From Octopus sinensis (lineage: Eukaryota), in contig NC_043001.1 of the NCBI RefSeq assembly GCF_006345805.1, forward strand, positions 66,712,001 through 66,776,000: DNA of 64,000 bases, read 5' to 3'. Positions within the stretch are counted from its first letter, which is position 1. Every line of letters starts with the position of its first letter. This document shows, piece after piece, positions 5,592-45,291 of the stretch. The notes beneath the pieces are model-generated. The model ran no database searches, had not been told where the DNA came from, and saw nothing but the letters and a program-made list of their open reading frames with translations. Both the position numbers and the translations under genes were made by a program.

Positions 5592-8500
5592 GCATACATG
5601 ATGGGCCTCTTACAGCTTTTGTTTACAAATCCACTCACAAGGCTTTGGTCAGCTTAGGGCTGTAATAGAAGACACTTGTCCAAGTACCACACAGTTGACC
5701 CAAATTATGTGGTTTGGAAGCAAATTTCTCAACTACATATCCACACATATATATGTAATAATATGAGATTTTTGAAGTAATTAAAATATATTGGCAATCA
5801 TAATTCTATGTGATTCATTGAGTGGATAGATATATTTACTATATCAAACAGTGACAGTCTACTCTGGGTTTTACCCTTGGCTGAACTGTTCATGACTGTC
5901 AGAGCTATTCACAGTTGTATCACCAGTTTTTCAGTTTCTTATTGACATCTACACCCTTCACAGATATGCATTGGTGAAAGATAGACATAATGTAAATGTA
6001 TCTACATAAAGTATTTACACTGTCCTTTTGGTACATATTTATACACTGTACTCTTCTGTATTCATATACTGTGCTCATTAAGTCTATATCATTTGAGTTG
6101 GTTATAGACATCCCAGTGGCATAGCTAGAGGTTGTGCCATCCAGGGCAGCACTTAAGTTTGTTACCTTCCCTTTGTCCCATGCCACCTATACAGATTCAT
6201 ACAGTAGACTCAAATGTGTCAACCCTATGAAAGTGTTGCGAAGAATGGAGTGCCCCCCCCACCAACTACACTACTGTCTCATCCATTAACCCGTTTTTGT
6301 TGTTATTGTTCTCCTCCTCCTTATGTGTCTGCTGATCAAATACCATTCTTTTATTCTGTATATTAGTCCCAGTATTTCTAAAATTCAAAATTGGATTATA
6401 ACCATGATGGGACACCACTTTCAAGGGTTTTACTCGATTATAGTGACTCCCCCAGTATTTAGTTTGGTACTTATTTTATTGACCTCTATTTGTAGGATGT
6501 CACCTAAGATTGGGTTACATCCTTTTAGAGAGTTACAAGACATTTGAGGTTTGTTTACCAAATTTCACCCGTAAGGTATTGGAGCAACCATAGTTATAAG
6601 GTAAACTTCTTAACCACTTACTCACCTTTCTTAATCCTTTTCATATCAACCTATCTGAGTTCAATCCCAGTTGGTCTATTATAGATAACCTCCATTTTTA
6701 TTTTCCAAAAATGTTCGTATTCAAATGAAAACTTTCCATCAGAATTTTTTTGTGACAACATTTTATATTCCAAACACCAGAATGCAAGATGGATAAATTA
6801 ATTATTTTACTTAATCCTTTCAAATTATTGGTTTTGAATCTTATTGGCTATGTATTTCAATAAGAAATGTGTTCCTGAGACAGTTAAATTCTTCCGCAAC
6901 TTATGCAAGTCCTACTTTGTGAAACTTTGGATAAATGATTTCTACTATATCTCCAGTCTTGTGAATAGATTTGGTGGATGGTAACTGAAAGAAGGCCATC
7001 ATTGTGTATTTATGCATACACACACTTGTGCATGTTTGTTTCCTTCCCTTGTTTGTGTGTACATGCATGCGAGTTTGTAATTTGTGTTTCCTTATGTTGA
7101 CGTTACACAACAGTTGTAAACAAGTGCCACTGTATTGTTTGTTTTTAATGTCCTGTGCAAACCTGTCTGACCATGGGAAAATATTCCTTTACTTGGAAAC
7201 AGTTAAAGGCTGGCAACAAAAAAGGCATCTGGCTGTTGAAAATCTGCATAAACACATTTCACCTAATCATTGCAAGCATGAAAAAACTGATATTAAAATG
7301 ATGATGATGATAATCCTTCAACTTCCATCATTGGTAATACCTATGTAAGCAAAAATTAAACAAATCATGACACAAAAACCATCGACTGTTCCAAATCCAG
7401 AAAACTTTAAGAAAAGGTCTGAAGTCTACAGAAAAGATCTTGTTGAACCATTTGTTGCTGACTCCTGATTTGCAGTTTATATTCTATTGTCTGATACACC
7501 ACCATACCTATATCTGATGACTTAACCTCTAAATCCTGTATTCTATTATATGTTTTCCTGTTGTACTTGTAGATGTAGGTATGTCTGGATGGCTAAGAAT
7601 ATTGTGACCTTTTCATGACTGTATTCTTGTTGAAATACACTGCTTTTATTTCAATTAATTTTTATACTAATGAAGAATTTAATAAAATAACTTTGTCATT
7701 ATTAGGTTAATGTTTGTGACATAAATCAGGATTTAGATTTAGATCACTTTAAAGAAAGAAATTTGTACCATAGAATTGGGAAAGTCTCCAATCATAAGGT
7801 CTCAGGTTCAGTTCCATTGTTTGGCATTTTAGACTAGTAGTCTTTTACCATATTTTTTGCTTTAGGTAAAAAAATATTAGCCTATAGTAAACGTTTGCAA
7901 GCCCATTGGTTTAAACATCAAACATCCATCTTTGTCCTACGATGTGTCATTGATTCAACCTAAAAATCAAATTAAAAGTACATATGTCTGTGGAATACTC
8001 AGCCACTTATTCTGAAAATTAAATGACAGATAGCCGAGTTAGTTAAACAACTGAAATAATTTTCTCTAAATTTGACAGATTTATTTGTTTTTATGTCTTT
8101 GTTTACTGTATTGTGTGTGTTCTCTGTTGTGTATGCGTATATGTTCTGTTATGTTTGTGTTGCAGAGCATAAGTGTGTATTGTGCATATTATTTTATGTT
8201 GTGTGCACAGAGGTGGTACCATGGCCAGTGAGGTAAATTTTTAGGTATGGTTATTGATAGTTGAAAACTATTATCCTATAGGAAAGTTTTAAACATTTTG
8301 GACCATTTTGATTGCACCTCAGATTTGGCTGCTATTTCTAATAGGTTGAACCATATATAGAGACTCCCTCTTTGGCTTCAGAAAGTAAGCTTGTTTAGTC
8401 CAGCTTGTCATGGTAAATAAACCCTTGTTGTCCTTAAAATGTTGACTTGCTTAAAAGGGACTCAAGTTGGGATAACATTAAGAAGGCTCTATATCACCAG

Positions 8501-10022: not shown

Positions 10023-11394
10023 GGATCTTTTCTATTCTGAAGCCAGTTTTTTCAAATTTTTCCTACTGAACCAAACAATTTGAAACTTCGTATACTGGTA
10101 GAATGTGTCAAAAGTAAACTTAATTGTAAACCAGAATGAAAACGGAATTGTAACTTCTAAGTTTAACGTTGTTTAATAATTAGAATTTTAACCAATGATA
10201 TTCCGTCATTCGGCTTTATTTTATTTACTCCGTCTCGACCACCAATTTCGTGACGTATTAAACATCTTAAATGTAAACAAGTTAGTACTTGCTTTCGTTT
10301 TATTTTTTTTACATAAGTAATGAGAGCGAAAGAGACTAAGAGGAAGCGATTTTATGACGAGGGAAGTTTGCCTTTGAAGTTACCGTCTAGGGGAAGCATT
10401 GATGTACATGTGTGTGTGTGTGTGTGTGTGATTGATGGGGTGTGGGAGACAGTATGTTGTGTAAGTGAAGTGCTTCTGTTAGTGTGTGTGAAGAGACAGA
10501 GAGAGTAATGTGTGAAAGAGAGAGATAACTGAAATTTTTTACTCGGTGTATGTGTATATGTATGTCTGCATGTATGTGTGTGTGTATGTATGTGTAAGTA
10601 TGTGTGTGTGTGTGTGTGTATGTATGTGTGTGTGTGTATGTATGTATGGCCGATTCATCGTAATTACGATGAATCGGCCATAGATACATACACACACACA
10701 CATACATGCAGACATACATATACACATACACCGAGTAAAAAATTTCAGTTATCTCTCTCTTTCACACATTACTCTCTCTGTCTCTTCACACACACTAACA
10801 GAAGCACTTCACTTACACAACATACTGTCTCCCACACCCCATCAAACACACACACACACACACATGTACATCAATGCTTCCCCTAGACGGTAACTTCAAA
10901 GACAAACTTCCCTCGTCATAAAATCGCTTCCTCTTAGTCTCTTTCGCTCTCATTACTTATGTAAAAAAATAAAAGTTTTTTACGGAAATCGACGGAAAAC
11001 TTGTGCTACGACAAGCGAAACTTCGCCGAAATTTAATATTAAAAAAGCAAAGAGCTGGCAGAAACGTTAGCACGCCGGGCGAAATGCGTAGCCGTATTTC
11101 GTCTGCCGTTACGTTCTGTGTTTGTTTACAGTTTTCCGAACGTTAGTACGTCACAAAAGCGCTTTCTACGTCACACTAATAGAATGCAGTCAAGTTTTAC
11201 ACATGAAAACAAACAATCTGATTGGTTAAAATTCGCAGTTTTAATCTACGATTAAAGTCATAAAATAGATTTTTCTCAAATAAACTAGTTCCAACCTGTG
11301 TCTTGTTTTGCTAGACTCTATCAGCATACGAAGTTTCAGATTATTTAGTTAAGTAGAAAGATCTGTGGTCCTGGCTTCAGAATTGAAAAGATCC
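10023..11394. mobile_element. Non-autonomous foldback DNA transposon with an 8-bp TSD (hAT- or Merlin-like), inserted into a SINE
   Basis: TIR GGATCTTTTCTATTCTGAAGCCAG (10023) vs CTGGCTTCAGAATTGAAAAGATCC (ends 11394). TSD GTAGAATC/GCAGAATC. Further diverged inverted motifs inside. The SINE head 'gagctggtagaatc' resumes after the element. Confidence 0.85.
10298..10974. repeat. Long spacer-less palindrome (arms ~310-365 bp), centre 10663/10664
   Basis: Centre GGCCGATTCATCGTAA|TTACGATGAATCGGCC; arms differ only by a few substitutions and microsatellite lengths. Confidence 0.95.
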
Positions 11395-28373: not shown

Positions 28374-28506
28374 GTATATACTTTGATACTTTGATAGGTT
28401 TCGGCCATTATTGGCCCAGGCCATGTCTAACTTAATAGCACCATATATATATATATATATATCACATAATCACATACCTATCTATCTGTCTGTTCATATA
28501 TATATG

Positions 28507-28541
<35 letters not shown>

Positions 28542-28631
28542 GTATGTATGTATATATATGTATATATATATATGTATGTATATATGTATATATATGTATA
28601 TGTATATATGTATGTATATATGTATATATAT

Positions 28632-29137
28632 GATTTTGATTTTGATTTTTCCAGTTTCAGCTCATGAGCTGTGGCCATGCTGGGGCACCGCCATTTGGTT
28701 TGCTACATGATTTTACCTCACAAATGCTTTTTAGCAACTGCCATTTGGTGCATGAGAGAGTTCGATGCAGCTGCCCTCATCTGCACCTCCTGCCGTGAAG
28801 TTGGTTCATCCGGGACACCTGACAGGAAGAGATCCAGTCCTACTTTAAAGACATCCGCATCTACACCATGCAGGTCCCTCAGGTTCTTCGGGAGGATATT
28901 GAAGAGCTGTGGGCCTCTGAAGCCCAGGCTATCACAGTATCTTGTCCTACATATTGATGGCAAATTTGGAGTCCTTGGTACCACGCAGTGGCGCCCGTTT
29001 CTGGCATTTGTGTGACTCTCGATGCCAAAGTTTGGGACAAGTCATTCCAGGATCTTCCAGATATATATTATGGCATATCTTTCTCGCCTACGCTCCAAGG
29101 AATAGAGTTTTAATCTCTTGAGTCTTTCCCAGTAGCT
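28632..29137 (-). mobile_element. 5'-truncated 3' end (~500 bp) of the CR1-group LINE
   Basis: Closely similar to 29871-30380; (AAAATC)n tail. Confidence 0.92.
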
Positions 29138-29215
29138 TATATATATATGTATATATATATGTATATATATGTATATATATATATATGTATATATATGTAT
29201 ATACGTATATGTATG

Positions 29216-29252
<37 letters not shown>

Positions 29253-29331
29253 GTATGTATATATATATGTATGTATGTATATATATATGTATATATGTAT
29301 ATATGTATATATATATGTATATATATATGTA

Positions 29332-29365
<34 letters not shown>

Positions 29366-29381
29366 TATGTATATATATATG

Positions 29382-29413
<32 letters not shown>

Positions 29414-29870
29414 TATGTATATATGTATGTATATGTATATATGTATGTATATGTATATATGTATGTATATAAAAATATATATGTATGTATTTATATGTAT
29501 ATATATATGTATATATGTATGTATTTATATATATGTATGTGTATGTGTATATATATATATATGTATGTGTATGTATATATATATGTATGTATATATATAT
29601 GTATATATATGTGTATGTGTATGTATATATATATGTATGTGTATGTATATATATATATATATATGTATGTGTATGTATATATATATGTATGTGTATGTAT
29701 ATATATATGTATGTGTATGTATATATATATGTATGTGTATGTATATATATATATGTATGTATATATATATATGTATGTGTACGTATATATATATACGTAT
29801 GTATATATATATATATATGTATGTGTATGTATATATGTATGTGTATGTATATATATATATGTATGTGTAT

Positions 29871-32800
29871 GATTTTGATTTTGATTTTGATTTTTCTAGT
29901 TTCAGCTAATGAGCTGTGGCCATGCTGGGGCACCGCCATTTGGTTTGCTACACGATTTTACCTCACGGATGCTTTTTAGCAAACGCCATCTGATGCATGA
30001 GAGAGTTCGATGCAGCTGCCCTCATCTGCACCTCCTGCCGTGAAGTTGGTTCATCCGGGACACCTGACAGGAAGAGATCCAGTCCTACTTTAAAGACATC
30101 CACATCTACACCATGCAGGTCCCTCAGGTTCTTCGGGAGGATATTGAAGAGCTGTTGGCCTCTGAAGCCCAGGCTATCACAATTTCTTGTCCTACATCTT
30201 GATGGCAAATTTGGAGTCCTTGGTACTACGCAGTGGCGTCCGGTTCTGGCATTTGTGTGACTCTCGATGCCAAAGTCTGGGACAAGTCCTTCCAGGATCT
30301 TCCAGATATATATTATGGCATATCTTTCTCGCCTACGCTCCAGGGAATAGAGCTTTAATCTCTTGAGTCTTTCTCAGTAGCTCATATGCTGCACAGAGGC
30401 TATCTTCTTCGTGTAGCTTCGTTGGATCGCCTCAAGTTCTGTGATCAACTTGACACTGGATTGTGACCATAGCTGAGAGCAATAGTCAAAGTGGCTTAGG
30501 ACAAGTGTCTTCCAGAGGACCATCATGGTTTCTTGTTCTCTTGTTCTAAAGGTTCTAAGAATCCATCCAGCCACCCGTCTACATTTCATTGTCAGTTTAG
30601 CAACATGTACATGAAAGGTCGCGTCATCACTCATGTGAATACCCAGGTCACGCACTGATTGTGCCTCTGGGATTGCAATCCCTCCGGGTCCAGTGTATTC
30701 ATTGGGTATTGCATTTAGTTTTGCATGCTGATAGTATAAAGCTTGAAACTTTTCAGCATTGAACTGCATGCTATTCTTTTCAGCCCACTTGTATATTTCG
30801 TCTAGCTCACATTGCAGGTGCTTAGTGTCTTCAGGGTTCTGTATTGCCTGTGAAACTTTTGTATCATCTGCATAACTTGTGATCGTGGCTCTCTGCGTGG
30901 CTGAGGGCATGTCTGAGAGGGCCATTATGAACAGTAGTGGTCCCAAAACAGTGCCCTGCGGAACACCACTCACTATTTGCATGTTAATGGAAGTGGCTGC
31001 TACCACCTGACTTCTATTTTCCAACTATGCCAAGATCACGCAGTTTGTGACATATCATTCCATGATCGACTTTATCAAAGGCCTTTGCAAAGTCGAGATA
31101 TATGACTTCCACATTTGAGTGGTTGAGCAGTTGTTTCAGCACCCAGTCATAGTGTTGTAGGAGCTGAGTTAAGCAGCTTCTTCCTGGTCGGAAACCATGT
31201 TGGGTGTCAGGTATCAAGTCATTTTCTTCAAGGAAGGTGATTAGTTTCCTTCTGACTATTCGTTCCATGACCTTGCTGATGTGTGAGGTCAGAGAGATAG
31301 GTCTGTAGTTCTTGGCCTCCGCTCTGCTACCTCCTTTATGAATTTGGGCATATTTTACCTTCCTTCAGTTTTCTTGGAAGTTTGCCAGCTGCAAGGAAGC
31401 TCTGAAAGAGGAACTGCAGTGGTCTTGTTAGGACTCTCTTACATACTTTTAGGAGGATTGCCAGGAATCCATCGGGGCCAATAGCTGAGTCTGTTTTCAT
31501 TTCATCTATAGCCTTTATTGCATCGTCTTCCTTTATATCGATGTAATTTATCGTCGCCACCTCTGATTTATATCTGCAGTGGTAAAGAAGTCAGTTGGAT
31601 TGCTGATTTGGAAATGCCCAAGGGGTGGAGTGAAAACACTCTTGAATTGCTCATTCAGTATTTCACGTACCCTCATTGGTTTTCCTGTGAGTGTGCCATC
31701 CTTTTCAAGGAGTGGCCCTATCCTACAGTGCACCGTAGCTGTTTCTTTGGCATACCTGTAGAAAGCTCTGGGGTTAGTTTTTATGTTGTCTATAGCCCAG
31801 GCTTCTTTGTCTGCTCTTTCCTTTTCATGGGAGAGTCTCAGACATTTTTCAATTTCCAACAGTTTTATTTTCAGGCGGGACTTTTCACTGCTTTCAATTT
31901 GTTTTTTTAGGCGATTTGAAATTTTTGTACGCCGTCTCATTAAAATTTTCCTCTCTCTGGAGATTTTGTTCTTGTGTACAGTGGCCTTTCTCTCTGGGAC
32001 ACATTTGTAGCATATGGCTTGCATTACAGACATGAATTGTTGAAGTTTCATGCATTACAGACATGAATTGTTGAAGTTTCATGTCGATGTCCGGCGAGGA
32101 GAGACATTCAAGCCAGTTTTGTTTGAGGATCTCTTTCTCAATTTGTTTCCAGTTTGCCTTATTGAAGTTCAAGCTGGAAAGATTCTGAGAGCTTCTTGTA
32201 GGCTGCATGTCCATGTTTTTCTTTGGCCCGTACATAGTCAGCTCTACCATGTTGTGATCCGAGAGTAGTGTCGGTGTCACTTTCACATTATGGATGAGAT
32301 CCATATTATTTGTGAAGCAGAGGTCCAGTGTGTTACCTGCCCTGGTTGGTTGGAGTATTACTTGCTCCATGTTGATGAGGTTCAGGAGGGACTTCACCTG
32401 TCCCTGTTCACCTCGTGTCATTCCTGGGAGAGAAAGGCCCTCGGGCCATCTGACATTGGGTAGGTTGAAGTCTCCCATGAGAAGTACACTTATGTGCTGT
32501 TCTAGTGTGACTAGAACTTCTATTTTTATAAGGCAGTCTTCAAACTTGCCCATATGGCTTGGGGCATCTGGAGGGCGATATGTAGCACACACAACTACAC
32601 CAAGTTGCCTTACATGTACAATTAGTGTGTCACACCCCGAGTTTGAGTATGACAAAAGGACCTGGGGTGTGAGGTCCTCACGGATGTACATAGCAACTCC
32701 TCCATGACTCCTTTCTTTTCTGTCGGTCCGTAGTACAACATACTGTGGTATGTGTAATTCCGCATCCGCTATGTCCGGTTTCAGGTGTGTTTCCGTAAGT

Positions 32801-33536
32801 GCTATGCATAAGGCTTGATTGCATGCAACAAAGTCTCTCAAGAACGGGACTTTTGTCCTGTTACTGTGTGTTAGTAGTCCTCTGATGTTCAGTAGGAGCA
32901 TTGAGGTGAGGTGTATACTGTTGCCGGTGGTGTCCACCTTGGGTCTATTTGCTGTGGTGGTCTTGTGAACTGTGGGTAGTCCCATCTGCGAGCTTGCGTT
33001 TGATGGAGCCAGGTTAGCTGCTGTAAATCTTTTGTGCCATGCACAAAAAAGATTCTTGCTCAGCAGCTGCCCTTTCAACAACACGTTGGCGGTTTGTGGC
33101 ACGCACCACATCTGCGTACAACCGTTTTGGGGCAGGTGGTGCGTGGTCCATCCCTTTTCCTTTCGGTGGTTGGTTTCTGCGGTAGGGTCCTGGATGTGCA
33201 AAACGGCAACCTGCACCTTCCTCTCCATGCCGGCAGGCACCTCTCAGGTAGAACCTACATACCCGTGTGCGCTGCTTGTTTCCATCCTTTTTGGCATATG
33301 GATAGTTAGGTTTGCTTCTATCCTTGGCTGTTTCGTTTTTTGGTTTTGCCTGAGTTTTAGTTTTAGTTTTTCCTCCTTTTTTGGTTCTTTCATCTCCATG
33401 TCCATGGCTTTTGGTGCAGGTAGGAGCACCCGCACTTGGGTTTACCTCCCGGGCAGGTTTCTCACTGGAGTTTTCTTCCTGGGCGTCTACCAGGTGGGGG
33501 TGACCTTTTTCATCAGCGCCCGCGTCTCCATCCTGT
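29871..33536 (-). mobile_element. CR1-group LINE, 5'-truncated in ORF1. ORF1 has a CCCH zinc finger; ORF2 (APE + RT) is frameshifted
   Basis: ORF1 'CRFYLRGACRHGEEGAGCRFAH'. APE 'LNIRGL','LTETHL','YRPP','GDFN','LDLCF','SDH'. RT 'YLDFAKAFDKVDH','SGVPQGTVLGPLLF','YADDT'. (AAAATC)n tail. 31-bp tandem duplication at 32021-32082. Confidence 0.95.
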
Positions 33537-33600
33537 ATGTATGTATATATATATATGTATGTGTATGTATATATATATATGTATGTGTATGTATATATAT

Positions 33601-33748
33601 AACGGTAAGCTTTATGAAAATAGACAAAAGACGAAGGCAGGTTTACGGAAATAAACAAAAGACGAAGGCAGGTGGAATACAAACAAACAATTGTATTAGT
33701 ATGGTGCTCAGGAAATATAAATGAAACAAGTCTTTAACGTTTCGAGCC

Positions 33749-33750
<2 letters not shown>
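33601..33750 (-). mobile_element. Penelope-type terminal (pLTR) fragment starting in the 3' half of a hammerhead-like motif
   Basis: Minus strand TAGGCTC-GAAA-CGT-T-AAAGAC..., flanked by TA repeats; a decayed relative lies at 44700-44830 (+). Confidence 0.55.
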
Positions 33751-33822
<72 letters not shown>

Positions 33823-33948
33823 GTATGTATATATATATATATGTATGTGTATGTATATATATATATGTATGTGTATGTATATATATATATGTATGTGTAT
33901 GTATATATATATATGTATGTGTATGTATATATATATATGTATGTGTAT

Positions 33949-33980
<32 letters not shown>

Positions 33981-34089
33981 ATATATATATATGTATGTGT
34001 ATGTGTATATATATATATATGTATGTGTATGTGTATATATATACATATGTATGCGTATGTATATATATATATATATATGTATGCGTATG

Positions 34090-34122
<33 letters not shown>

Positions 34123-34315
34123 ATATATATGTATGTGTATATATATACATATGTATGTGTATATATATACATATGTATGTGTATGTATATATATATATAT
34201 ATGTATATATGTGTATGTATATATGTATATATATATATATGTATGTATATATGTGTATGTATATATGTATATATATATATGTATGTATATATGTATGTAT
34301 GTATGTATATATATA

Positions 34316-34352
<37 letters not shown>
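33751..34352. repeat. (TA)n/(TATG)n compound microsatellite
   Basis: Direct inspection. Confidence 0.95.
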
Positions 34353-34354
<2 letters not shown>

Positions 34355-35630
34355 TAAGAAAGTTTGTTTGGTAAAGCACGTGGGTGAATATATAAGAAAA
34401 TAGTAAAGTGTGAAAAAACGACAGAAGGCTTAAATGTTAAAAAATATATATATTTGTGTCAAAATGTCTGGAGAATATTGGAAAAATTTTTTTCCTTTCC
34501 TTAAAATGACATAATTTTAAAATTTTTAAAGAAATTACCGGTTTCGCGTGTAGCTTTTCAAATTTCTTGTGACGTTATGTTTATATTGTATGGAATTATC
34601 GTTGTTTTTATTTCCAGGAGATTTCTAAATAAGGGGAGGTAGTGAGTGATTTTTTCCGGTGTAGGGGAGATAATCGCTTAAAAAATTTTTTTTCCCATTT
34701 CCTTGTTAATTTCTCTGTGTCAGTATGTTCGGATGGTTGAGTCTGGGTTTGTACTTTTCAATGAAGAATGTTTCCTTGTTCAGTCTCATTTGTGTTGATG
34801 ATCCGAAAGCACATTGGTAAAATGGGAAGATTAAAAATTGTGGCAGTAGTTGCTTTGCGCATTTCTCGATGTGCTCACTAAAAGGTATCATTCTATATTC
34901 TGGGAATGCAATCTGTTGTCGATGCAGTGTGCATCTGCGCCTGAGTGATAGTCCCGTGGAACCCACGTAGTCTTGGTGGCAGCCCGAGCATTTAATAACA
35001 TAAATTATGTTTTCAGAGGCACAAGTAAAGTTAGATTTGATCTTAAATTTCTGTCCCTCTTTAAAGAAGAATTCTGATCCTTCCAATAGGTTAGGACATG
35101 TTGCACAGTTCGATCTACCACATTTTTTAACTTTGCATCCGTAATTTTAGAAGACAATTTTGCCTTTGTGAGAATCTTTTTAAGTGATTTAGGCTGTTTG
35201 TAGCTTTTAATGATTTGGTGTATGTTTAGAATTTCCTTTAATTTTGGGGTTTTATGAAGTATTGGTAAATTCTGGGTGATGATGGTGAAGGCTTCTTTGT
35301 TTCTGGGGTTGTATGTAGATATGTAAGGTAGTATTTTCGGGGAAGGTGTGTTGTTGTGTTGAACTTTTCTTAAAGTTTCTATGTTGATTTCTGTTGCACG
35401 TCTGATCCCATCCTCTATGAGTTGAGCTGGGTAATGTCTGTCAATCAGGGTGTTTTTGAGTTCTTGCAGTCTAAAGTTCCTGGTATTTTGTTCTGACACT
35501 ATTGTGCATATCCTTCTTGCAAGGTTGAAGGGGATGTTTGTTTTAGTGTGTCTTGGGTGGCATGAATTAAAAAGAAGGTATTGTTTGGCGTCTGTGGCTT
35601 TGTAAAAAATGTCTGTTTCTATTTTAAGGT
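34353..35630 (-). mobile_element. 5'-truncated Penelope-like element (RT thumb, linker, GIY-YIG endonuclease, 3'UTR)
   Basis: 'IETDIFYKATDAKQYLLFNSCHPRHTKTNIPFNLARRICTIVSE' (PLE thumb), then 'FTCASENIIYVIKCSGCHQDYVGSTG..LRRRCTLHR...KETFFI...P.LN' (GIY-YIG); one frameshift near 35115. Confidence 0.93.
34529..34568 (-). ncRNA. Minimal type I hammerhead-like motif (variant core) in the Penelope 3' terminus
   Basis: AAGAAAU-UUGAAAA-GC(UACAC)GC-GAA-ACCGGU-A-AUUUCUU: 7-bp stem I and palindromic stem III; core deviates from CUGANGA. Confidence 0.6.
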
Positions 35631-36511
35631 TAATTTTTCATACTTTTCCTCCTAATCATATTCAAAGACACTATCCCTTAGTGAGGAGTACACTTAACTT
35701 CCTTTATCTTTTACTGAGGTAATTTTTTATCATCAACAATTCAGAGTCTGTCTGTTTTTAATTTAGATAAAGAAAAAATTTTAACTAATTTGAAATATAA
35801 CCAACATAGACATACACAAATATCAGCATCATCATCATCAGTTAGCATCAGTTTTCCATGCTGGCATGGGTTAGATGGTAAGCTAGGGAGCAGTGCCAGG
35901 TCCAGTCTGTTTTGGCTTCATTCCTACAGCTGGATGCCCTCCCTAATGCCACTCAATCCATGGAGCACAAGTGCCTGTAATGTGTCACTGGCATGGGTGC
36001 CTTTCACATGTCATTGGCACCTCACATGTGTCACTAGCATGGGTGCCTCGCACATGTCACTAGCATGAGAGCTTCACGTTTCACCAGCACAGGTGCCTTT
36101 CATGTTTCACCAGCACTGGCCATGACTATAATTCTACATATTTATACATCCACAACCTTGTCACCCCCACCAAAAAAGCACTACAACCCTAGATTTACTA
36201 ATACTAATTAGGTTCTGACTGAAAGTAGTTGTACTTTAAATTAAACTTTTTTATTTGCAAATCCCGAATCTCTGATAATCAGAACATAAATATCTAAGGT
36301 CCACTGAGAAGAAAAAAGTTTACTCTGGAAAAAAAAGAAGAGGGTCTAATCTAATGGAAGAGTTTTGATCACATTAATGGATTAGTGTTATGGTTGAATT
36401 AAACTAATAGACAACACAACATCCATTACTAAGAATCAGTCATTCAATTAATTATTCCTACACAGACAAGCACTTTCTTCATTCTGCCTCTTTCAACACT
36501 ACTACAACACA

Positions 36512-36523
<12 letters not shown>
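35631..36523. repeat. Left arm of an ~890-bp near-identical inverted duplication
   Basis: Reverse complement of ~37300-38187; the same 92-aa ORF appears on both strands. Confidence 0.95.
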
Positions 36524-36544
<21 letters not shown>

Positions 36545-37299
36545 AGATCTAAATATTGTCTTGCAGACTTACCTCTCTTTACCTATGCATTTAGAGGAAA
36601 CTCCCTCCTCCCCAATCTGTTTACTGCCTTGTTGGTATGTCTTGTTTATGTTGTTACTGAGAACAGCTGAAACTAGCAATTGTGGTTGGAAATGGTAGTG
36701 GTGGTGGTGGCAGCAGCAGCAGCATCGTTGTTGTCATCAGTGAAGGTGATGGGTGGTAGTTGATGATATTGTGGGCGGGTTGGTGGTGTGTCAGGATGGA
36801 GTATTGTGATGGCTGTAGGTGGTAGCTGTGAAGAATCTGTGGGTAGAAATGGTGTGGTTGGTAAGGGTGGTGGTGCTGTGTCATGGGGATGTATTTGTGG
36901 GTGATGGTGGTGGTGGTGTGTAGTGATGGAGAGAGTGAACATTATCTGTTTAGATGACTCAAGCAGTTTCCCAGCAAAAAAAAAGCAGGAAAAAGAAGAC
37001 TTCAAAGTTTTACTATTATTGTATGTAAACAGCAACAGTTAAAATGAGAGAGGAGCCTCTACATGTTTAACTGACCTGCTAGAAATAACAGGTAAATATC
37101 ACTCCCATCAACTGTGTGGGTGAAAGCATTGCTGTGAGGTTAAAAGGTTTGTATTGCAACCATATGCTTTGGAGATCAATCCCACTGCATGGTACTTTGG
37201 GCAAGGTTGACCAGAGAGCCTTGTGAGCGAAATTTGGTGGACAGAAACGCAGAGAGAGAGAGAGAGAGTGAGTGAGAGAGAGAGAGTGAGTGAGAGAGA

Positions 37300-38187
37300 G
37301 AGAGAGAGTGTGTTGTAGTAGTGTTGAAAGAGGCAGAATGAAGAAAGTGCTTGTCTGTGTAGGAATAATTAATTGAATGACTGATTCTTAGTAATGGATG
37401 TTGTGTTGTCTATTAGTTTAATTCAACCATAACACTAATCCATTAATGTGATCAAAACTCTTCCATTAGATTAGACCCTCTTCTTTTTTTTCCAGAGTAA
37501 ACTTTTTCTTCTCAGTGGACCTTAGATATTTATGTTCTGATTATCAGAGATTCGGGATTGCAAATAAAAAAGTTTAATTTAAAGTACAACTACTTTCAGT
37601 CAGAACCTAATTAGTATTAGTAAATCTAGGGTTGTAGTGCTTTTTTGGTGGGGGTGACAAGGTTGTGGATGTATAAATATGTAGAATTATAGTCATGGCC
37701 AGTGCTGGTGAAACATGAAAGGCACCTGTGCTGGTGAAACGTGAAGCTCTCATGCTAGTGACATGTGCGAGGCACCCATGCTAGTGACACATGTGAGGTG
37801 CCAATGACATGTGAAAGGCACCCATGCCAGTGACACATTACAGGCACTTGTGCTCCATGGATTGAGTGGCATTAGGGAGGGCATCCAGCTGTAGGAATGA
37901 AGCCAAAACAGACTGGACCTGGCACTGCTCCCTAGCTTACCATCTAACCCATGCCAGCATGGAAAACTGATGCTAACTGATGATGATGATGCTGATATTT
38001 GTGTATGTCTATGTTGGTTATATTTCAAATTAGTTAAAATTTTTTCTTTATCTAAATTAAAAACAGACAGACTCTGAATTGTTGATGATAAAAAATTACC
38101 TCAGTAAAAGATAAAGGAAGTTAAGTGTACTCCTCACTAAGGGATAGTGTCTTTGAATATGATTAGGAGGAAAAGTATGAAAAATTA
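37300..38187. repeat. Right arm of the ~890-bp inverted duplication
   Basis: Reverse complement of 35631-36523; one 1-bp indel seen (~36260 vs ~37558). Confidence 0.95.
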
Positions 38188-38576
38188 TATTTATTGCTCT
38201 TAATTTCAAACTCCCACATCATTCCAACTCAATACACCTTACCCCCACAGACACATGGTGAAATCTGCAAGGAAATTGGTGATTGTTTGTGTTGGCACCA
38301 GTTAGTCGACAGAAGAGTTTATATTATTCCCTCCTCAAAGTGATTGAACTTAAGCTCTTCTCTTATCTTTTGGGATCTTGTCCTTGGACTGGGAGTGAGT
38401 GTCAGAAAGAAAGAAAGAAAGAGTTAAGATTCAGAATCCAAGGAATCCTGTACAGGTCAGTAACAAGTTATTGAATGGAAATAGTAATAAAAATAAATAT
38501 GTAATTGCTGTGAGAAAAGAAATTGACAAATGTTCTGAATGTAGAGGAGAGAGAATAGAAAAGACAAACACATCTG

Positions 38577-38722
38577 TATTACTCTTTTACTCTTTTACTT
38601 GTCTCAGTCATTTGACTGCGGCCATGCTGGAGCACCGCCTTTAGTCAAGCAACTCGACCCCGGGACTTATTCTTTTTGTAAGCCCAGTACTTATTCTATC
38701 GGTCTCTTTTTGCCGAACCGCT
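38577..38722 (-). mobile_element. 3' part of SINE family B
   Basis: Reverse complement of ~26415-26555. Confidence 0.85.
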
Positions 38723-39984
38723 ATTGTCATACAAGAATCATAGTAATAATGAATGAAGTGAGTAGGTAGGTGAGTAGGTATGTGGTTTGTGAGTAGAGGG
38801 GTATAGAGACTGATAATAGGTAGAAGTTTAAGATACAGGCAAAATGATTTATAAGCAGTGTGTATGAGTATTTTAGTCATAAGTTAGCACGTATGTGTGG
38901 AGGGTGGGCATATGAGTAGGTGGGATGTATAGTATGAATCTGTGTGTCAGTGTGCATTGAGGGGGAGGACTAGTGAAAGGAGATGGGTGGTAATTAAAGG
39001 AGAACATAGACAGTTGTTGATGCCCATGTTAGAGGAAATGGAAAAGAAATCATAGCAGATTAGTTCATGATGTTTGAGTGAAGCCAGAATAGAAAATGGG
39101 AGTGGTGGCCTGTGAAGTTGAAATGGTGAGCTACAGAGTTATAGGGGCTGAGGGTGTTGTGATAAATATCATGCAAGAACTCTTTGAAGCAATCTGACAA
39201 ACCTTAACCAGTTTCAACTATGTATTGAGAGAGAGCTGTAAAGAGCTGACAGTTGATGTAGTATATGTCATTGAGGAACAAATGGAGTGGATTTGGAGCT
39301 GCTCAAAGTTGTTAAAATTGAAAGGATATGTATTACATAATGTGAGTGGCAGCAGGAGAAATCAAAGTGGCAGTGGGAGTCTGGAATTTTAAAATATTTG
39401 TGGCCAAGTTTAGCGAAGTAAATGAAACTGAAAATGTCTATAGCTATCTATGGTTTTTAGGTACATATAACTGCAGGATTGATTATAAAAACAAATCATT
39501 CCAAGAAAATACAAAAATATGTTTGGGTATCCTAAATAAGTGAAACAAATTTGTAAATGCTTAAAAGTCACTTATCAAATATCATTACTACAGATTTCTA
39601 AGGTGGTGAGCTGGCAGAATTGTTAGCTAGCTGGGTAAATGCTTAATGGCATTTTGTCCATCCATATGTTCCGAGTTCAAATTCCACCAAGTTCAACTTC
39701 GCCTTTCATCCTTTCGGAGTCAATAAAATAAGAACCAGTTGAACACTGGAGTCGATGCATTTGACTTATCCCCTTCTCTGAAACTGCTGGCTTTGTGCCA
39801 AAATTCGAAGCATTATTAAAGATTTCTCTTTTAATTGCTAAACAGCCTAATTTTTGCACTAGCATCTTAAAAAAGAAAATGTTTCTAATAAACATATATA
39901 TATTTGAAAGTAATTGGAGGTGTCAAGGATGGTGGAAGTAAAGAAGATGGAAAGAGTTAATGAAGGAAATGATCTGTTCCCAGG

Positions 39985-40063
39985 TAAGCAAGGTAGAATT
40001 GATACAGTGATAAGCAAGGTAGAATTGATACAGTGATAAGCAAGGTAGAATTGATACAGTGAT
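39985..40063. repeat. Perfect 26-bp tandem triplication TAAGCAAGGTAGAATTGATACAGTGA
   Basis: Three identical units. Confidence 0.95.
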
Positions 40064-40582
40064 GGGGTTGGTGAACAGGGTGGAAATCAGGGTTTCAAGA
40101 TAATCAAAAAATAAACTGGTGTAGTTAGGGCTCATAACCAATTCAGTGGTATATTAATAGAACTCCTGGGGAAAAAGAAGCACTTTGAAGATAAAGAGAA
40201 GTTTGTTGATGTGGAGGAATGCTAGATAACTGAATTTGAGGGGGTTTGCAACAGTCCAGAAAATATCATCACAAAGGAAGGAGGGGATGATAGTTTAGAG
40301 TTATTTAAGGTCCATATATAGTATATTATTAAATTAGCTAGACATACCATATAACCTGCAACCCCCCACCCCTACAAACCACAAATGTTTTTGTTTATTA
40401 TTTAATGTTATTACCTTTTCTATCCTTCCTTCCTTTGTTTTATCAGTGACTGCATGAATCTGGAGAGCATAGGACTGCCTTGCCATATAGAATCTCTCCA
40501 GATTCTAAGTTTAAACCCCACTGAAGTCAACTTTGTTTTTGACCATCTGTATACCTAGGACTACATTATCCTTTCTTTAAGA

Positions 40583-40728
40583 CAGAGGTGGGCAACATTT
40601 ATTGAGAAGTGGGCCTCATGAGACAGAGTTCATCATCAGGCAGGTTACACTACTAGAAAAAGTTCGAGGTAATTTTTCATTAGTGTGCCACTCAGAAAGT
40701 CCCACGGATAGTAATTTGCCCATGACTT
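40583..40728. mobile_element. Possible decayed hAT-type MITE
   Basis: Ends CAGAGGTGGGCAA ... TTGCCCATGACTT resemble CAGGGGTGGGCAA-type TIRs. Confidence 0.35.
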
Positions 40729-42078
40729 CATTAAGAGATTTGACTGTTAATTCTAACTGGTTTTACTTTGTTTAGATGTATCCTTGTTAGCCTATTACAT
40801 GGTAAAAGACATGATTGTGCAATTAAGAATGTTTCTGGGTTCAATCCCATTATGCAGCATCACTTTGAATGAGTGTCTTCTTTCATAATATCTGATGACT
40901 AATACTTTATGAATGATACTTGGTAGATGGAAACTGTATAGAAACCCATCATGTTTGTGTGAATGTGTCTATATGCACATCAATGTGAGATTGTTGCTAA
41001 ATCAATGTGTTGAACATTAGATATATACTGTAGTCAGTTCAGTACTCCTCCTTAACATGTTTATGGTCAAGGACCAATCTAGAAAATCATCATCATCATA
41101 ATTCTATCACCACCTTCCTTTACCACCACCACCTCCTCCTCCTCATCCGCCCCTCTTCCTCTTCCTCCTCCTCCTCATCATCATCATCAACAATGGTCTT
41201 TCTTTGCAACATATCTTTGTATCCCTGTTTTATCATTCTGTCGACATTTTGCTGTGAAGTGTAAACAAGTATAAATTTGTTTTTATGTGTCACCTGTAGG
41301 TATTAACACTCATATATTACTCACACACACACAGATTAAATATTAACCAAAATACTTGATATATCTGAAGATAATTACCATCAGAGTCCTTTAGAATAGT
41401 TTCCAGATTTACCAAAATTCCTTCACTAAAGATTGGTAATAGTTTTAAAACCCTTTCACTTCAAAGCAATAATGCCAATCTCTATTTCACACTTGAAAGA
41501 AGTTTAGCCATTTATTATTGATCATATTGCTAATAAAACATACTGCTTCCTGTGTGTTTTAAATGATTTTGAAAACTAAAAATTTGGTAGAATTTAAAAT
41601 AATTAGCATTTTAATTATTACATCTCATATTTGGAACAAAATTTAGTAAAAAGTTTTTACATAAAATTATGGTTGAGTGTTTTAATTTAAATACAAACAC
41701 TCTAAAACTGTTTTGTGTTGAAGAACTGGCGGCTGGAGGTGGTCTCTGTTAAACCAGTGTCAGAAGGATTTTATGACTATACTAGACTAATCAAAATTAT
41801 GATATTTCATATTTATTATCCTCCTTCGAAACTAATTTTCAAAATGCTAATTTTTAAGAAGTACTCATTAACAATAAAAGTGAATATTCGAGATTGAACA
41901 ATACAACAGTGTGTGTGTGGTGTGTGTGTGCATGTGCATGTGTGTGTATGTGTCTCAGATATGTGGGTCTCTGGTGGTCCTTGTGTAAGGTTTAAATTAC
42001 ATGCAGTCGACTGAGATATTTATATGTATATATATATATATTTATATGTATATATATATATATATATATATTTATATG

Positions 42079-42110
<32 letters not shown>

Positions 42111-42115
42111 TATAT

Positions 42116-42453
42116 CGCAAACTTACAAGAAAACTGAAGGAAGGTAAAATATACCCTATTCATAAAGGAGGTAGCAGACGGCGGCCAAGAACTACAGACC
42201 TATCTCTCTGACCTCACACATCAGCAAGGTCATGGAACGAATAGTCAGAAGGAAACTAATCACCTTCCTTGAAGAAAATGACTTGCTGCCTGACACCCAA
42301 CATGGTTTCCGACCAGGAAGAAGCTGCCTAACTCAGCTCCTACAACTCTATGACTGGGTGCTGAAACGACTGCTCAACCACTCAAATGTGGAAGTGATAT
42401 ATCTCGACTTTGCAAAGGTCTGTGATAAAGTCGATCATGGAATGATATGTCAC
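42116..42453 (+). mobile_element. Internal RT fragment of the same CR1-group family
   Basis: 'MERIVRRKLITFLEENDL..QHGFRPGRSC..YLDFAK' nearly identical to 31014-31268; preceded by (TA)n. Confidence 0.92.
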
Positions 42454-43561
42454 TTTATTCACTTTAGCACATTTCAAATGCCTTGACAAGCCAAATCTAT
42501 TTATACATAGTAGGTTGTATGTTTAATTAGGTTATTAATTAATCAGTTAATCAATCAGCTTATAGAACAGTTGTCTTCTAAGGCATTCTTCTCAAAGACC
42601 TGAGATTTATTTTAGGGTCAATTACTGATCAATAGGGTCATCCACGGGCTTTGCATCTTCGAAAATGTATGGAATAAGAGAGCCCTTATTTGAAAAATAG
42701 GTATAGGTTAGTGATAAGAAGGGAATCCACCTGTTAAACAGTGCCTCGATAGTTGATACTTCCCATCCATGTTAGCATAGGGAGAAAAGTACAGATGTAA
42801 CCCTCTCCCATTTTAAAGTGTAATAGTTGTATCTGTAGTTCCATTAGTGTTGAGTTGTCTATCTTTGGATGAGTATTTCTTAATTAGATATGTGTCTTTA
42901 ATGAAGTTGTCTGGTGAGTGAATCAAATAGGGGTTAAAATGGATGGTAAAGTGGAATGGGAGCTGTTCTAGCAGTGGTAGAATGAAAAACAGCTTGATAA
43001 ATTGTATAGAAGGAAATACTTTGACAGATTAATAGAAGAAATAAAGATAAAACACATGGAGAATGTCTACACCTATAGCTACCCCTGCAGGTATGTGAGG
43101 GGCAGGAGTATCCTGTGCCAGATGTGTAAAAGTAGAATTACAGTGTAAGTCAGGATTGTATGGAACTGTTGGAAATGAAAAGATTTCGTTCCCAGAGAGA
43201 ATATCCAGGCCTTTGTGAGGCAATGTTTGCTTGTATGGAGAATGTTCAATCTCTCCATGAATGGTTGCTGTTGTTGTTGTTGGTGTTATTGTTTAATCCC
43301 AGGCTTGTTCTGGTTGAGGTCACTGTTGATCAAAAGGCATTCCACTCATGCCCATCTTTATTTCTCGGGATATATAGTATTACATTATTTTGTGTATTTT
43401 TCATTTTTTCAGATGGTAGGCTATTGGGTTAGTTAGAGATTGGCTGTTTAGTTAAGATAAGGGTATTGGTTAGAGGCGGGTTTTGGTTTCAAGAACATAT
43501 GTATACATATGCTCAGATCTGAAGATGATAAGGATTAAAAAGTATTTGATGTTGTAATAAC

Positions 43562-43608
<47 letters not shown>

Positions 43609-43907
43609 TCTCTGAGACATCAGGATGCGGGCCTCGGTGCTTCACTATATCATATCTTGTATTGCTTCAGCATTCTGAGCTCAGATCCAGTTGATGTTGA
43701 TAAAATAACTGCTAGCTCTATACACCATTCAATGCTATCAACTAAATCAAATATACACCCTGTTATATTTAAGAAATGATTTGAACCCAACAGTAATCAA
43801 TATATTATGTTATTTTTTTCTTCAGATTAATCTGTCAATACTCAATGCTAATGAAAACATAATTATTCCACTGATTCTTGTTGCAAAATGCATATATATA
43901 TATATAT

Positions 43908-44101
43908 GTAGGTCCCGGGTTGAGTCGGGGTTAACCACAGTAAATAAGGTACTCAATACATAGCAGAGTAAAGTAATTTATTTTATAGAAGGAGCTTCTA
44001 CAGGACTAGAACTGTTTCATTCAGATGAAATCTTCAGGAAGCTTCCTGAAGATTTCATCTGAATGAAACAGTTCTAGTCCTGTAGAAGCTCCTTCTATAA
44101 A
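43908..44101. mobile_element. Penelope-type terminus in inverted arrangement, containing a perfect 120-bp palindrome (43982-44101)
   Basis: Centre GGAAG|CTTCC; the longer minus-strand arm continues through AATAAA to a TA run. Confidence 0.75.
44040..44090 (+). ncRNA. Type I hammerhead ribozyme (mirror copy on the minus strand at 43993-44043)
   Basis: AGCUUC-CUGAAGA-UUUCAUCUGAAU-GAA-ACAG(UUCUAGUC)CUGU-A-GAAGCU. Intact core, 6-bp stem I, stem III, GUA cleavage triplet; stem II is short. Confidence 0.8.
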
Positions 44102-44671
44102 TGTTTTTTCTCTTTCTCTTTCTTTTTTTAAACATTTACAAGTTCTCTTTCTTTTTCCTTTTCTTTTCAACCATTTACGTCAGCGTCCTTTTTTCAAAAT
44201 TCAGCATTTGACAACACAACGTTTCTCTCTTTTTTTTTTTTACATTTAAACATCAAAGTTCAAAACATACAGAAAAACATTTACCAGAACATTTGTTTCT
44301 TAAATTCGTGCCTGCAACATTTTAGCTTCACAAATTCCCACTATAGTAGCCCAGCTTCTTCATGTATCTCTCTCTGCCCCTGTCCGGCTGTGACTGTCAA
44401 CTTCCTGACTATCTCTCGTCCTGTCATCTCTCTCACTGACTGTCTCTCTCTCTCTAGACCACGCTGCCCTTGTCCGGTGGACGCTCACAATGACCGCCTG
44501 TCTCTCTCTCACTGACTGACTCTTTAACTTAATGCTACCCGTATATATAATGTCGTCCCAACATTTTAATTTTTTAAAACTTTCCGTCACCGTATGGGGC
44601 CATTAATAATCATGTCTTGTCAAGGAGCATGATTATTAATGGCCATAGGCACTGATCTTTATATATATAGA
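44102..44671 (-). mobile_element. Possible 5' part of a non-autonomous Helitron-like element
   Basis: Minus strand begins TCTATATATATAAAGATC; 17-bp-stem hairpin at 44598-44644; no 3' CTAG end seen. Confidence 0.4.
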
Positions 44672-45010
44672 CATATTTTTTCCTATCTGCATCTGTTTTC
44701 TCTCTTCGTTCTTTTCTGTAGAAGAGTGTAGGCTAAGAATGTCAAAGACTCTTCCATTCTTCCTGAGCATCAAATTAATACATTTTGTTTATTGTTTCTT
44801 CACCTGTCTTGTTTTTTTGTACAATTTTGAACCATATAGACATACATACATTCATATATGGTTTGTTTTTGTGATGAGTTATAATATATATTAAATATAA
44901 CTTAAATAACAGTGCTACAAAGGCTAGCAGGCAGAAACTTCAAAGTTACTGTCACTGCATTTGTAAAAGTATAATGCGCACACACACACGCACGCACGCA
45001 CACACACACA

Positions 45011-45196
45011 CTAGTAAGCACATAAATGTGAAACAAGATGGAAAAATGAATACTCAAATACCAGAAGTAGAGTAATATGCTTTATTTAAAAGCAGCAGAA
45101 ATATAACAAAAGCTGTTACTCAGAGTTTCGTCGAATGGGAACGTGAAACTCTGAGTAACAGCTTTTGTTATATTTCTGCTGCTTTTAAATAAAGTA

Positions 45197-45244
<48 letters not shown>

Positions 45245-45288
45245 TACTTTATTTAAAAGCAGCAGAAATATAACAAAAGCTGTTACTC

Positions 45289-45291
<3 letters not shown>
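45011..45291. mobile_element. Penelope-type terminus fragments in triple inverted arrangement with the 3' half of a hammerhead
   Basis: ...GGGAACGT-GAA-ACTCTGAGT-A-ACAGC...AATAAAG on +; inverted copies at 45081-45129 and 45248-45291. Confidence 0.7.

What the first reader, a model, noticed from the sequence alone, without database searches (positions are those of the whole stretch)
28381..45291. Several different Penelope-type termini sit next to (TA)n and break or invert inside their hammerhead
Seen: HHR or HHR-half motifs of different sequence at 28381-28442 (-, weak: GGCC-AATAAT-GGCC-GAAAC), 33601-33750 (-, starts in stem II), 34529-34568 (-, complete variant), 44040-44090 (inversion point in stem I) and 45130-45165 (starts in stem II). 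All belong to inserts adjoining TA microsatellites. Inference: the ribozyme fold fixes where reverse transcription stops or folds back. This would produce a class of tiny non-coding, TA-targeted palindromic ribozyme inserts mobilised by GIY-YIG elements like the one at 34.4-35.6 kb.
Basis: partly seen in the sequence, partly recalled or inferred. Interest (0 to 1): 0.75.

Follow-up and report, generated by a model that had tools for sequence, protein, structure and literature searches.

The report
Penelope stumps stop at transcript start
Four of the five sites are leftover tail ends of four different Penelope-type jumping-gene families sitting in TA repeats (the fifth is the tail of an unrelated LINE), and the mirror-image stumps of one family pile up at one base that is likely the capped start of the element's RNA rather than a point set by the ribozyme's fold.

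Summary
Observation partly confirmed; interpretation partly supported. Site 28381 is no hammerhead but the 3' tail of an APE/RT LINE. The other four (B, C, D, E) are 3' ends of four Penelope-like families, each tied to its own GIY-YIG-type endonuclease; D and E are Hydra-type, so the element at 34.4-35.6 kb is not their parent. TA targeting is strong. D and E form head-to-head stumps of one long-tail and one short arm (41 of 42; 40 of 44). Their 5' ends are not uniform: 53 of 78 D arms and 46 of 67 E arms reaching the outer edge of stem I stop within 10 nt; few stop at the cleavage site. In D a TATA box lies 29 nt upstream of that base and an extra G often precedes it: likely run-off at a capped transcription start. 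Family B has a similar wall about 75 nt upstream of its ribozyme, family C none, so the fold does not set the stop in general. E remains open. The architecture is published; the start-site reading was not found in my searches. The scan's own unchecked notes report the same reading in two other genomes.

The parts
28381..28442 (-). Site A: 3' end (hairpin plus short tandem tail) of an APE/RT LINE; not a hammerhead
   Evidence: L151 and L136 continue upstream into an RT matching the window's own LINE (E 8.6e-24 and 1e-12)
33601..33750 (-). Site B: 5'-truncated 3' end of a Penelope-like family, cut at -15 in loop II of its hammerhead, TA on both sides
   Evidence: parent ORF with RT and GIY-YIG in L263; 7141 exact 21-mer hits
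34355..35638 (-). Element C: 5'-truncated autonomous-type Penelope-like copy (RT thumb, zinc-finger linker, GIY-YIG, 3' UTR, tail)
   Evidence: 764 exact 25-mer hits
34529..34568 (-). Complete predicted minimal type I hammerhead of C with U3-A8 core pair and palindromic stem III
   Evidence: same core in 25 of 37 matches; variant described in PMC4209133
43908..44043 (-). Site D long arm: from the wall base (-45) through a complete predicted hammerhead to the tail end (+90) at (TA)n
44040..44101 (+). Site D short arm: from the same wall base through a second complete predicted hammerhead to the short end; arms overlap by AGCT (44040-44043)
   Evidence: 2778 exact 19-mer hits
45024..45129 (-). 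Site E long arm (tail type), 5' end in GAAA of the hammerhead
45132..45194 (+). Site E short arm, 5' end inside the catalytic core, 3' end at (TA)n
   Evidence: 754 exact 32-mer hits
45247..45291 (-). Extra short E arm between two TA runs
   Evidence: sequence only

Best explanation
Sites B-E are truncated 3' ends of four separate Penelope-like retrotransposon families inserted in (TA)n, and the tiny D-type palindromes are likely made when two copying reactions, one from each of the family's two 3' start sites, run off the capped 5' end of a short uncut RNA that begins at the first base of the ribozyme and are then joined head to head. Shown: family structure, two fixed 3' ends, long-plus-short pairing, the wall of 5' ends, the TATA box at fixed spacing, the excess G, the TA preference, the linked endonucleases. 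Inferred: (1) the endonuclease cuts both strands of (TA)n and each end primes reverse transcription (shown in vitro for an anole Penelope-like element, PMC11167929); (2) a promoter in the 3' UTR/pseudo-LTR starts transcripts at the wall base; (3) the extra G is a copied cap; (4) the two cDNA ends anneal by microhomology, and because the D transcript would begin with the self-complementary word AGCT the commonest product is a perfect palindrome. The ribozyme marks the spot only because it lies at the start of the transcript; its helices add microhomology for a minority of joints. For B (one-armed copies, wall at an initiator-like word) the same run-off is likely; for E the wall is softer and its cause is open; C shows no such product. 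Site A is a LINE tail.
For: Position-unbiased samples picked by a pattern 3' of the cleavage site. D: 42 paired insertions and 23 unpaired arms; 41 of 42 pair a long and a short arm; 53 of 78 arms reaching -37 end in -46..-37 (7% expected from the rate inside the ribozyme); 4 of 107 end in -9..0; 10 of 42 are the perfect AGCT joint. E: 40 of 44 long-plus-short; 46 of 67 end in the same window. Long and short arms stop at the same place though they start about 70 nt apart (D 26 of 29 and 25 of 28; E 16 of 20 and 24 of 29), so the stop is set by template position, not by length. First 100 of 4342 D matches, sorted by eye: 59 continue upstream, 21 are perfect-palindrome arms, 20 stop at -45 otherwise, and 16 of those 20 have G at -46 (p 5e-5 at a base rate of 0.35, 0.006 at 0.5); 5 of the 16 cannot come from the partner arm; L357 has the extra G on both arms; in copies that continue, -46 was G in 1 of 31. 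(T/C)ATAAAT(A/G) found in 28 of 42 upstream contexts, at -29 in 24, -30 in 3, -28 in 1, while the spacer differs between subfamilies. B: about 33% of 3092 copies reaching -105 end in -105..-113 around TCAGATC, about 0.3% in the next 8 nt (estimated from two 100-row listings); its ribozyme starts at -33. C: 33 head-to-head spacings run 156-5788 nt, 4 at or below 310. Endonuclease upstream on the same strand: D in 4 loci, E in 2, B in L263. Ribozyme mutants did not change insertion in vitro for the anole element (PMC11167929). Pseudo-LTR promoters: PMC2377424, PMC3846280; cap-derived G: PMC9341517.
Against: No RNA 5' end was observed: only contigs of runs guessed to be RNA were available. 11 of the 16 G cases can also be read as the partner arm's own last base. 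E has no TATA box at -30 and no extra-G signal; its wall coincides with the end of an extended stem I, a U-run and a TTAA palindrome, and several arms stop at -49 to -61. B's wall is blurred by TA microhomology, has no TATA box, and its initiator match is a recalled consensus. In D the wall is exactly the first base of stem I, so a fold effect cannot be separated from a start site within that family. The 68% figure holds for the D subfamilies caught by my pattern; in the wider listing 41 of 100 arms stop at the wall. Arms of one insertion are not independent, so the binomial values overstate significance. One D arm ends at the predicted cleavage site (1 of 166) and one carries 7 A-to-G changes (1 of 185): cut or double-stranded templates are used at times.
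Confidence: 0.7

Rival explanations
1. The ribozyme fold sets the stop: once RT has copied the 5' strand of stem I, the cDNA can fold on its own copy of the 3' strand, or the structured RNA/protein complex stalls RT, so copying ends or switches there.
For: D and E walls lie at the outer edge of stem I; some joints use helix complementarity (D -32/-23 three times, 7-nt overlap; E L321, 8-nt overlap between stem I strands). E lacks TATA and extra G.
Against: No wall at the ribozyme in C or B (6 of 29 ends inside it, wall 75 nt upstream). Simple fold-back on stem I predicts -45/+1 joints; 0 of 42 seen in D. It does not explain the TATA spacing or the extra G. Predicted folds are no more stable than shuffles (z -0.1 to -1.1).
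Confidence: 0.17
2. The palindromes are a self-propagating non-autonomous class (retrozyme- or SINE-like) copied whole from master hairpins.
For: Recurrent identical joint (10 of 42); one D copy with clustered A-to-G changes suggests a double-stranded RNA served as template; non-autonomous hammerhead derivatives of Penelope-like elements are published (bioRxiv 10.64898/2026.07.22.740005).
Against: Joints vary widely; the perfect joint occurs in five sequence variants with both arms sharing the variant (15 of 16); nearly every pair is long-plus-short with TA at both outer ends; tiny arms lack the TATA box; no tandem arrays of units; long copies carry an endonuclease.
Confidence: 0.07
3. Junction clustering comes only from short self-complementary words (AGCT, TTAA, A/T runs) that let two randomly truncated cDNAs anneal.
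For: Many joints overlap by 1-9 nt; C joints also show microhomology.
Against: 77 (D) and 91 (E) arm-pair cells offer 4 nt or more; nearer palindromes such as CTAG at -11 gave 0 perfect joints against 10 at -45; arms stop at -45 with partners ending at -23, -39, -41, -43 or +34.
Confidence: 0.06

Closest known systems
Hydra-clade Penelope-like elements (Craig et al. 2021, PMC8557442; passages, section 11, supplement rows read)
   Same: C-terminal endonuclease with CxCx5C linker and CxxC/CxH motifs (D; decayed in E), canonical-type hammerhead in the 3' end, insertion into (TA)n, inverted 5'-truncated copy with a tail at one end.
   Different: D and E ribozymes differ in sequence from the listed Hydra-1_Obim motif; tails here are about 68-70 nt, not 30-40; the passages read report no wall of 5' ends, TATA spacing or extra G.
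Neptune-type endonuclease-positive Penelope-like elements with minimal hammerheads (PMC8557442 passages; Cervera and De la Pena 2014, PMC4209133, parts 1-2 of 4 read)
   Same: C (and B, first cysteine not seen in L263) has the Cx2-5CxxC linker and two cysteines in the GIY-YIG core; minimal hammerheads with palindromic stem III, an extra base before stem II (B) and the U3-A8 core (C).
   Different: B copies are one-armed (0 of 29 inverted); B's core has U in place of A6. Clade given by motif only, no tree.
Anole Poseidon element PAc in vitro (Frangieh et al. 2024, PMC11167929, parts 1-2 of 4 read)
   Same: Two internal RT start sites bounding the tail; both DNA strands cut and extended; AT-rich target; ribozyme cleavage not needed.
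   Different: The part read does not treat how 5' ends are joined or where they stop; here genomic copies give that distribution.
Adineta vaga Penelope insertions (Arkhipova et al. 2013, PMC3846280, passages read)
   Same: Inverted pseudo-LTRs, palindromes at the head-to-head joint, TATA box and initiator in the pseudo-LTR.
   Different: That paper proposes self-priming on an antisense template; long-plus-short pairing and the extra G on both arms here point to two primings on a sense, capped RNA.
Animal non-LTR retrozymes (bioRxiv 10.64898/2026.07.22.740005, part 1 of 5 and passages read)
   Same: Short non-coding sequences with type I hammerheads derived from Penelope pseudo-LTRs.
   Different: Retrozymes are defined as tandem units; D and E are head-to-head stumps with coding parents.

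Membership tests
Endonuclease-positive Penelope-like elements | RT plus C-terminal GIY-YIG-type endonuclease upstream of the terminus | tested here: met
   B and C: RVT_1 above cut-off, GIY-YIG below cut-off (21.2 and 16.1 bits vs 22.6). D: endonuclease in 4 loci, RT piece in L253; E: endonuclease in 2 loci, no RT seen. D's endonuclease had no Pfam hit; its label rests on motifs.
Endonuclease-positive Penelope-like elements | Inverted 5'-truncated copy with a tail at one end only | tested here: met
   D 41 of 42, E 40 of 44; C. Not seen in B (0 of 29).
Endonuclease-positive Penelope-like elements | Type I hammerhead in the pseudo-LTR | tested here: met
   Motifs conserved within B, C, D, E; cleavage activity untested; Rfam gave no hit.
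Endonuclease-positive Penelope-like elements | Partial-tandem full-length copy with 5' pseudo-LTR | tested here: inconclusive
   No upstream pseudo-LTR in L263 or L265-L268; these copies are 5'-truncated.
Hydra clade (D, E) | CxCx5C linker, CxxC and CxH motifs, no CCHH | tested here: met
   All in D. E: CxxC seen, CxH read by eye, linker decayed; 36% identity to D.
Hydra clade (D, E) | RT motifs (RWK, DKT) and phylogenetic placement | not tested
   No full-length RT recovered; no tree built.
Non-LTR retrozymes | Tandem units each with a complete hammerhead, no coding parent | tested here: not met
   Head-to-head pairs and linked endonucleases; one two-unit tandem in L350.
Hammerhead ribozyme / Penelope terminus (site A) | CUGANGA box, stem I and III, Penelope parent | tested here: not met
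   Box absent; upstream is a LINE RT. The CR1/L2 label is recalled.
Capped Pol II transcription start (walls of D, B, E) | Capped RNA 5' ends at the wall | not testable with these tools
   Only contigs were served; indirect signs in D.

The most novel reading that the evidence does not exclude
Hydra-clade elements start their RNA exactly at the first base of the hammerhead, so the ribozyme is a cap-removing switch at the transcript's 5' end; each palindromic stump is a fossil of a dimeric twin-priming reaction in which both cDNAs ran off the capped, uncut RNA, which would explain the long-unexplained junction palindromes of Penelope-like elements, with occasional re-copying of edited hairpin transcripts.
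Probability: 0.4. Interest if true: 0.65.

Novelty: new member of a known kind. Interest (0 to 1): 0.42.

Why it matters
How Penelope-like elements form their inverted ends and what their hammerhead does are open questions in the papers read (PMC8557442, PMC3846280, PMC11167929). Thousands of young genomic stumps give a base-resolved record: two 3' starts, one 5' wall, almost no ends at the cleavage site. If the wall is the capped start, it favours twin priming on a sense, uncut RNA over antisense self-priming, and one CAGE or 5' RACE experiment can test it. The elements themselves are ordinary members of known clades.

Tried and rejected
Rfam scan: no hammerhead hit, only microsatellite-driven miRNA matches. 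Minimum-energy folds: not significant, not the hammerhead fold in full. Pfam on the window's own GIY-YIG and thumb pieces: nothing at 1e-3. First clade guess for D and E (Nematis, recalled) dropped after testing Hydra motifs. First B pattern was subfamily-specific (8 hits). The B listing excluded the templated base at its first position and so hid long copies; the complementary search corrected this. A's TA count (26 of 28) is biased because the query held TA flank; not used. Arm ends at -100 or beyond in D and -235 or beyond in E are partly subfamily divergence from the reference copy and were pooled as long. Duplicate records from overlapping loci or local duplications were collapsed before counting (D 45 to 42 pairs, E 45 to 44); one B locus (L207) gave no row. 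First check for 3' ends at the cleavage site was not anchored and was redone. No RNA holder listed on record; contigs of guessed-RNA runs show no starts. The bacterial promoter scan does not apply. Supplement search for the four ribozyme words gave only chance matches in the 5 passages shown. No long ORF in 7 kilobase-long D loci. Literature searches for the start-site reading; none of the listings showed it; subscription papers (such as the 2017 report on dimeric Penelope hammerhead variants, recalled) and the bioRxiv supplements were not seen.
Full report
Setting. The window lies in a 2.7-Gb animal genome; its repeats look cephalopod to me (recalled, not tested). I call the five sites A-E and give positions relative to each predicted cleavage site (0).

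Observation. A descriptor scan finds three complete type I hammerheads in the window, two back to back at D and one at C; shuffles gave 0.15 per window. Rfam has no hammerhead hit. Site A lacks the CUGANGA box; its 30 fetched loci end in a short tandem tail and two continue upstream into a LINE reverse transcriptase, so it is a LINE 3' end. B is a simple 5' truncation at -15. C is intact. D inverts at AGCT, the first four bases of stem I, leaving both ribozymes whole. E is broken inside the core on both arms. Family 3' ends abut TA in 66 of 67 (D), 60 of 76 (E), 26 of 28 (B) and 40 of 41 (C) cases against 5-13% background.

Parents. B leads upstream to an ORF with RT and GIY-YIG; C is itself coding. 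D has an endonuclease upstream on the same strand in four loci and an RT piece in another, E in two loci that are collinear over about 2 kb. D shows the CxCx5C, CxxC and CxH motifs that define the Hydra clade; E's is 36% identical to D's; C's and B's are 34% identical to each other and show no significant match to D's. So each stump has its own coding family, and C is not the parent of D or E.

Junction map. I picked copies by exact patterns lying 3' of the cleavage site, in genome order (754, 2778, 7141 and 764 hits), and fetched flanks for most of the first 100 D and E hits and the first 30 of B and C. D: 42 paired insertions, 41 of them one tail-bearing and one short arm; 53 of 78 arms reaching -37 end within -46..-37, 4 of 107 in -9..0, and 10 of 42 insertions have the perfect AGCT joint. 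E: 40 of 44 long-plus-short, 46 of 67 in the same window. Long and short arms stop at the same place. C has no wall: 33 head-to-head spacings of 156-5788 nt, one mapped arm ending inside the ribozyme and none between -5 and -262. B is one-armed (0 of 29 inverted); 6 of 29 ends fall in the ribozyme, while about a third of 3092 copies reaching -105 end within -105..-113 and about 0.3% in the next 8 nt (estimate), about 75 nt upstream of the ribozyme. The D palindromic joint also shows as loose ends in contigs of two independent public runs, one of another organism, so it is not an assembly artefact.

What the wall is. In long D copies a TATA box sits 29 nt upstream of the wall base in 24 of 42 contexts (28 of 42 within one base), across subfamilies with different spacers. 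Of the first 100 of 4342 D matches, 59 continue upstream, 21 belong to perfect palindromes and 20 stop at the wall in other joints; 16 of the 20 have G just before it, five not explicable by the partner arm (sorted by eye), whereas continuing copies had G there in 1 of 31. L357 has the extra G on both arms and L358 repeats the first 15 bases, each time behind a G. An untemplated G is the known mark of a copied cap (PMC9341517, passages), and pseudo-LTRs hold promoters (PMC2377424 and PMC3846280, passages). B's wall lies at TCAGATC, an initiator-like word (consensus recalled), with no TATA box. E has neither TATA nor extra G; its wall meets the end of an extended stem I, a U-run and TTAA, so it stays open.

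Mechanism. Inferred from these counts and from the anole element's behaviour in vitro (both strands cut and extended, two internal RT starts, ribozyme cleavage not needed; PMC11167929): both ends of a cut (TA)n prime cDNA, one at each start site; on a short transcript from the pseudo-LTR promoter both run to the cap; the ends anneal by microhomology. In D the transcript would begin with self-complementary AGCT, giving the perfect palindrome. The joint recurs in five ribozyme sequence variants with both arms alike in 15 of 16, which fits repeated new formation. Against the reading: no RNA end was seen; many G cases are ambiguous; in D start site and stem I edge coincide; one arm ends at the cleavage site (1 of 166) and one looks A-to-I edited (1 of 185).

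Known and new. Inverted truncated copies with a one-sided tail, TA preference and hammerheads are published for these clades (PMC8557442; PMC4209133). The wall with TATA spacing and extra G did not appear in my searches or in the passages read. I had noted this reading before finding that unchecked notes of the scan report it in two other genomes; other notes on this genome describe the same two-armed stumps and gave me the Hydra lead and PMC3846280. They are not independent support. Verdict: new members of known Penelope-like clades, with a testable inference about how the inverted ends form; interest 0.42.

Noticed in passing
window 35631-36530 and 37290-38187: A near-perfect inverted copy of about 900 nt of host DNA (identical blocks of 630, 50 and 211 nt) starts exactly at the 5' break of element C and ends in a (TC)n(TA)n run; either templated during insertion or an assembly artefact.
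   Followed up: partly
L296:930-1180: One D arm with 7 A-to-G changes (1 of 185 arms), as if copied from an edited double-stranded RNA.
   Followed up: partly
L350:2560-2950: Two-unit tandem of D whose upstream unit ends exactly at the predicted cleavage site (1 of 166 arms); a weak hint of cleavage in vivo.
   Followed up: partly
L200 near 1500: Chimera: E hammerhead to +9 joined to the B 3' part from +2, close to both cleavage sites.
   Followed up: no
family B hammerhead (L189, L121-L128): Core has U in place of A6 in the common forms; activity unknown.
   Followed up: no
family D hammerhead: U-U mismatch at the base of stem II is kept across subfamilies while loop II varies.
   Followed up: no
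window 10646-10682: Perfect short palindrome inside inverted TG/CA microsatellite arms; perhaps another fold-back stump.
   Followed up: no
window 44583-44660 and 44715-44830: A further hairpin next to TA, and a decayed relative of family B on the plus strand.
   Followed up: no
window 28631-29138 and 29870-33530: An APE/RT LINE and a near-identical copy of its 3' end, both ending at TA runs: TA arrays here also collect non-Penelope elements.
   Followed up: partly
window 8199-8344: U4 snRNA-like match just below the Rfam cut-off (42.8 vs 46 bits).
   Followed up: no
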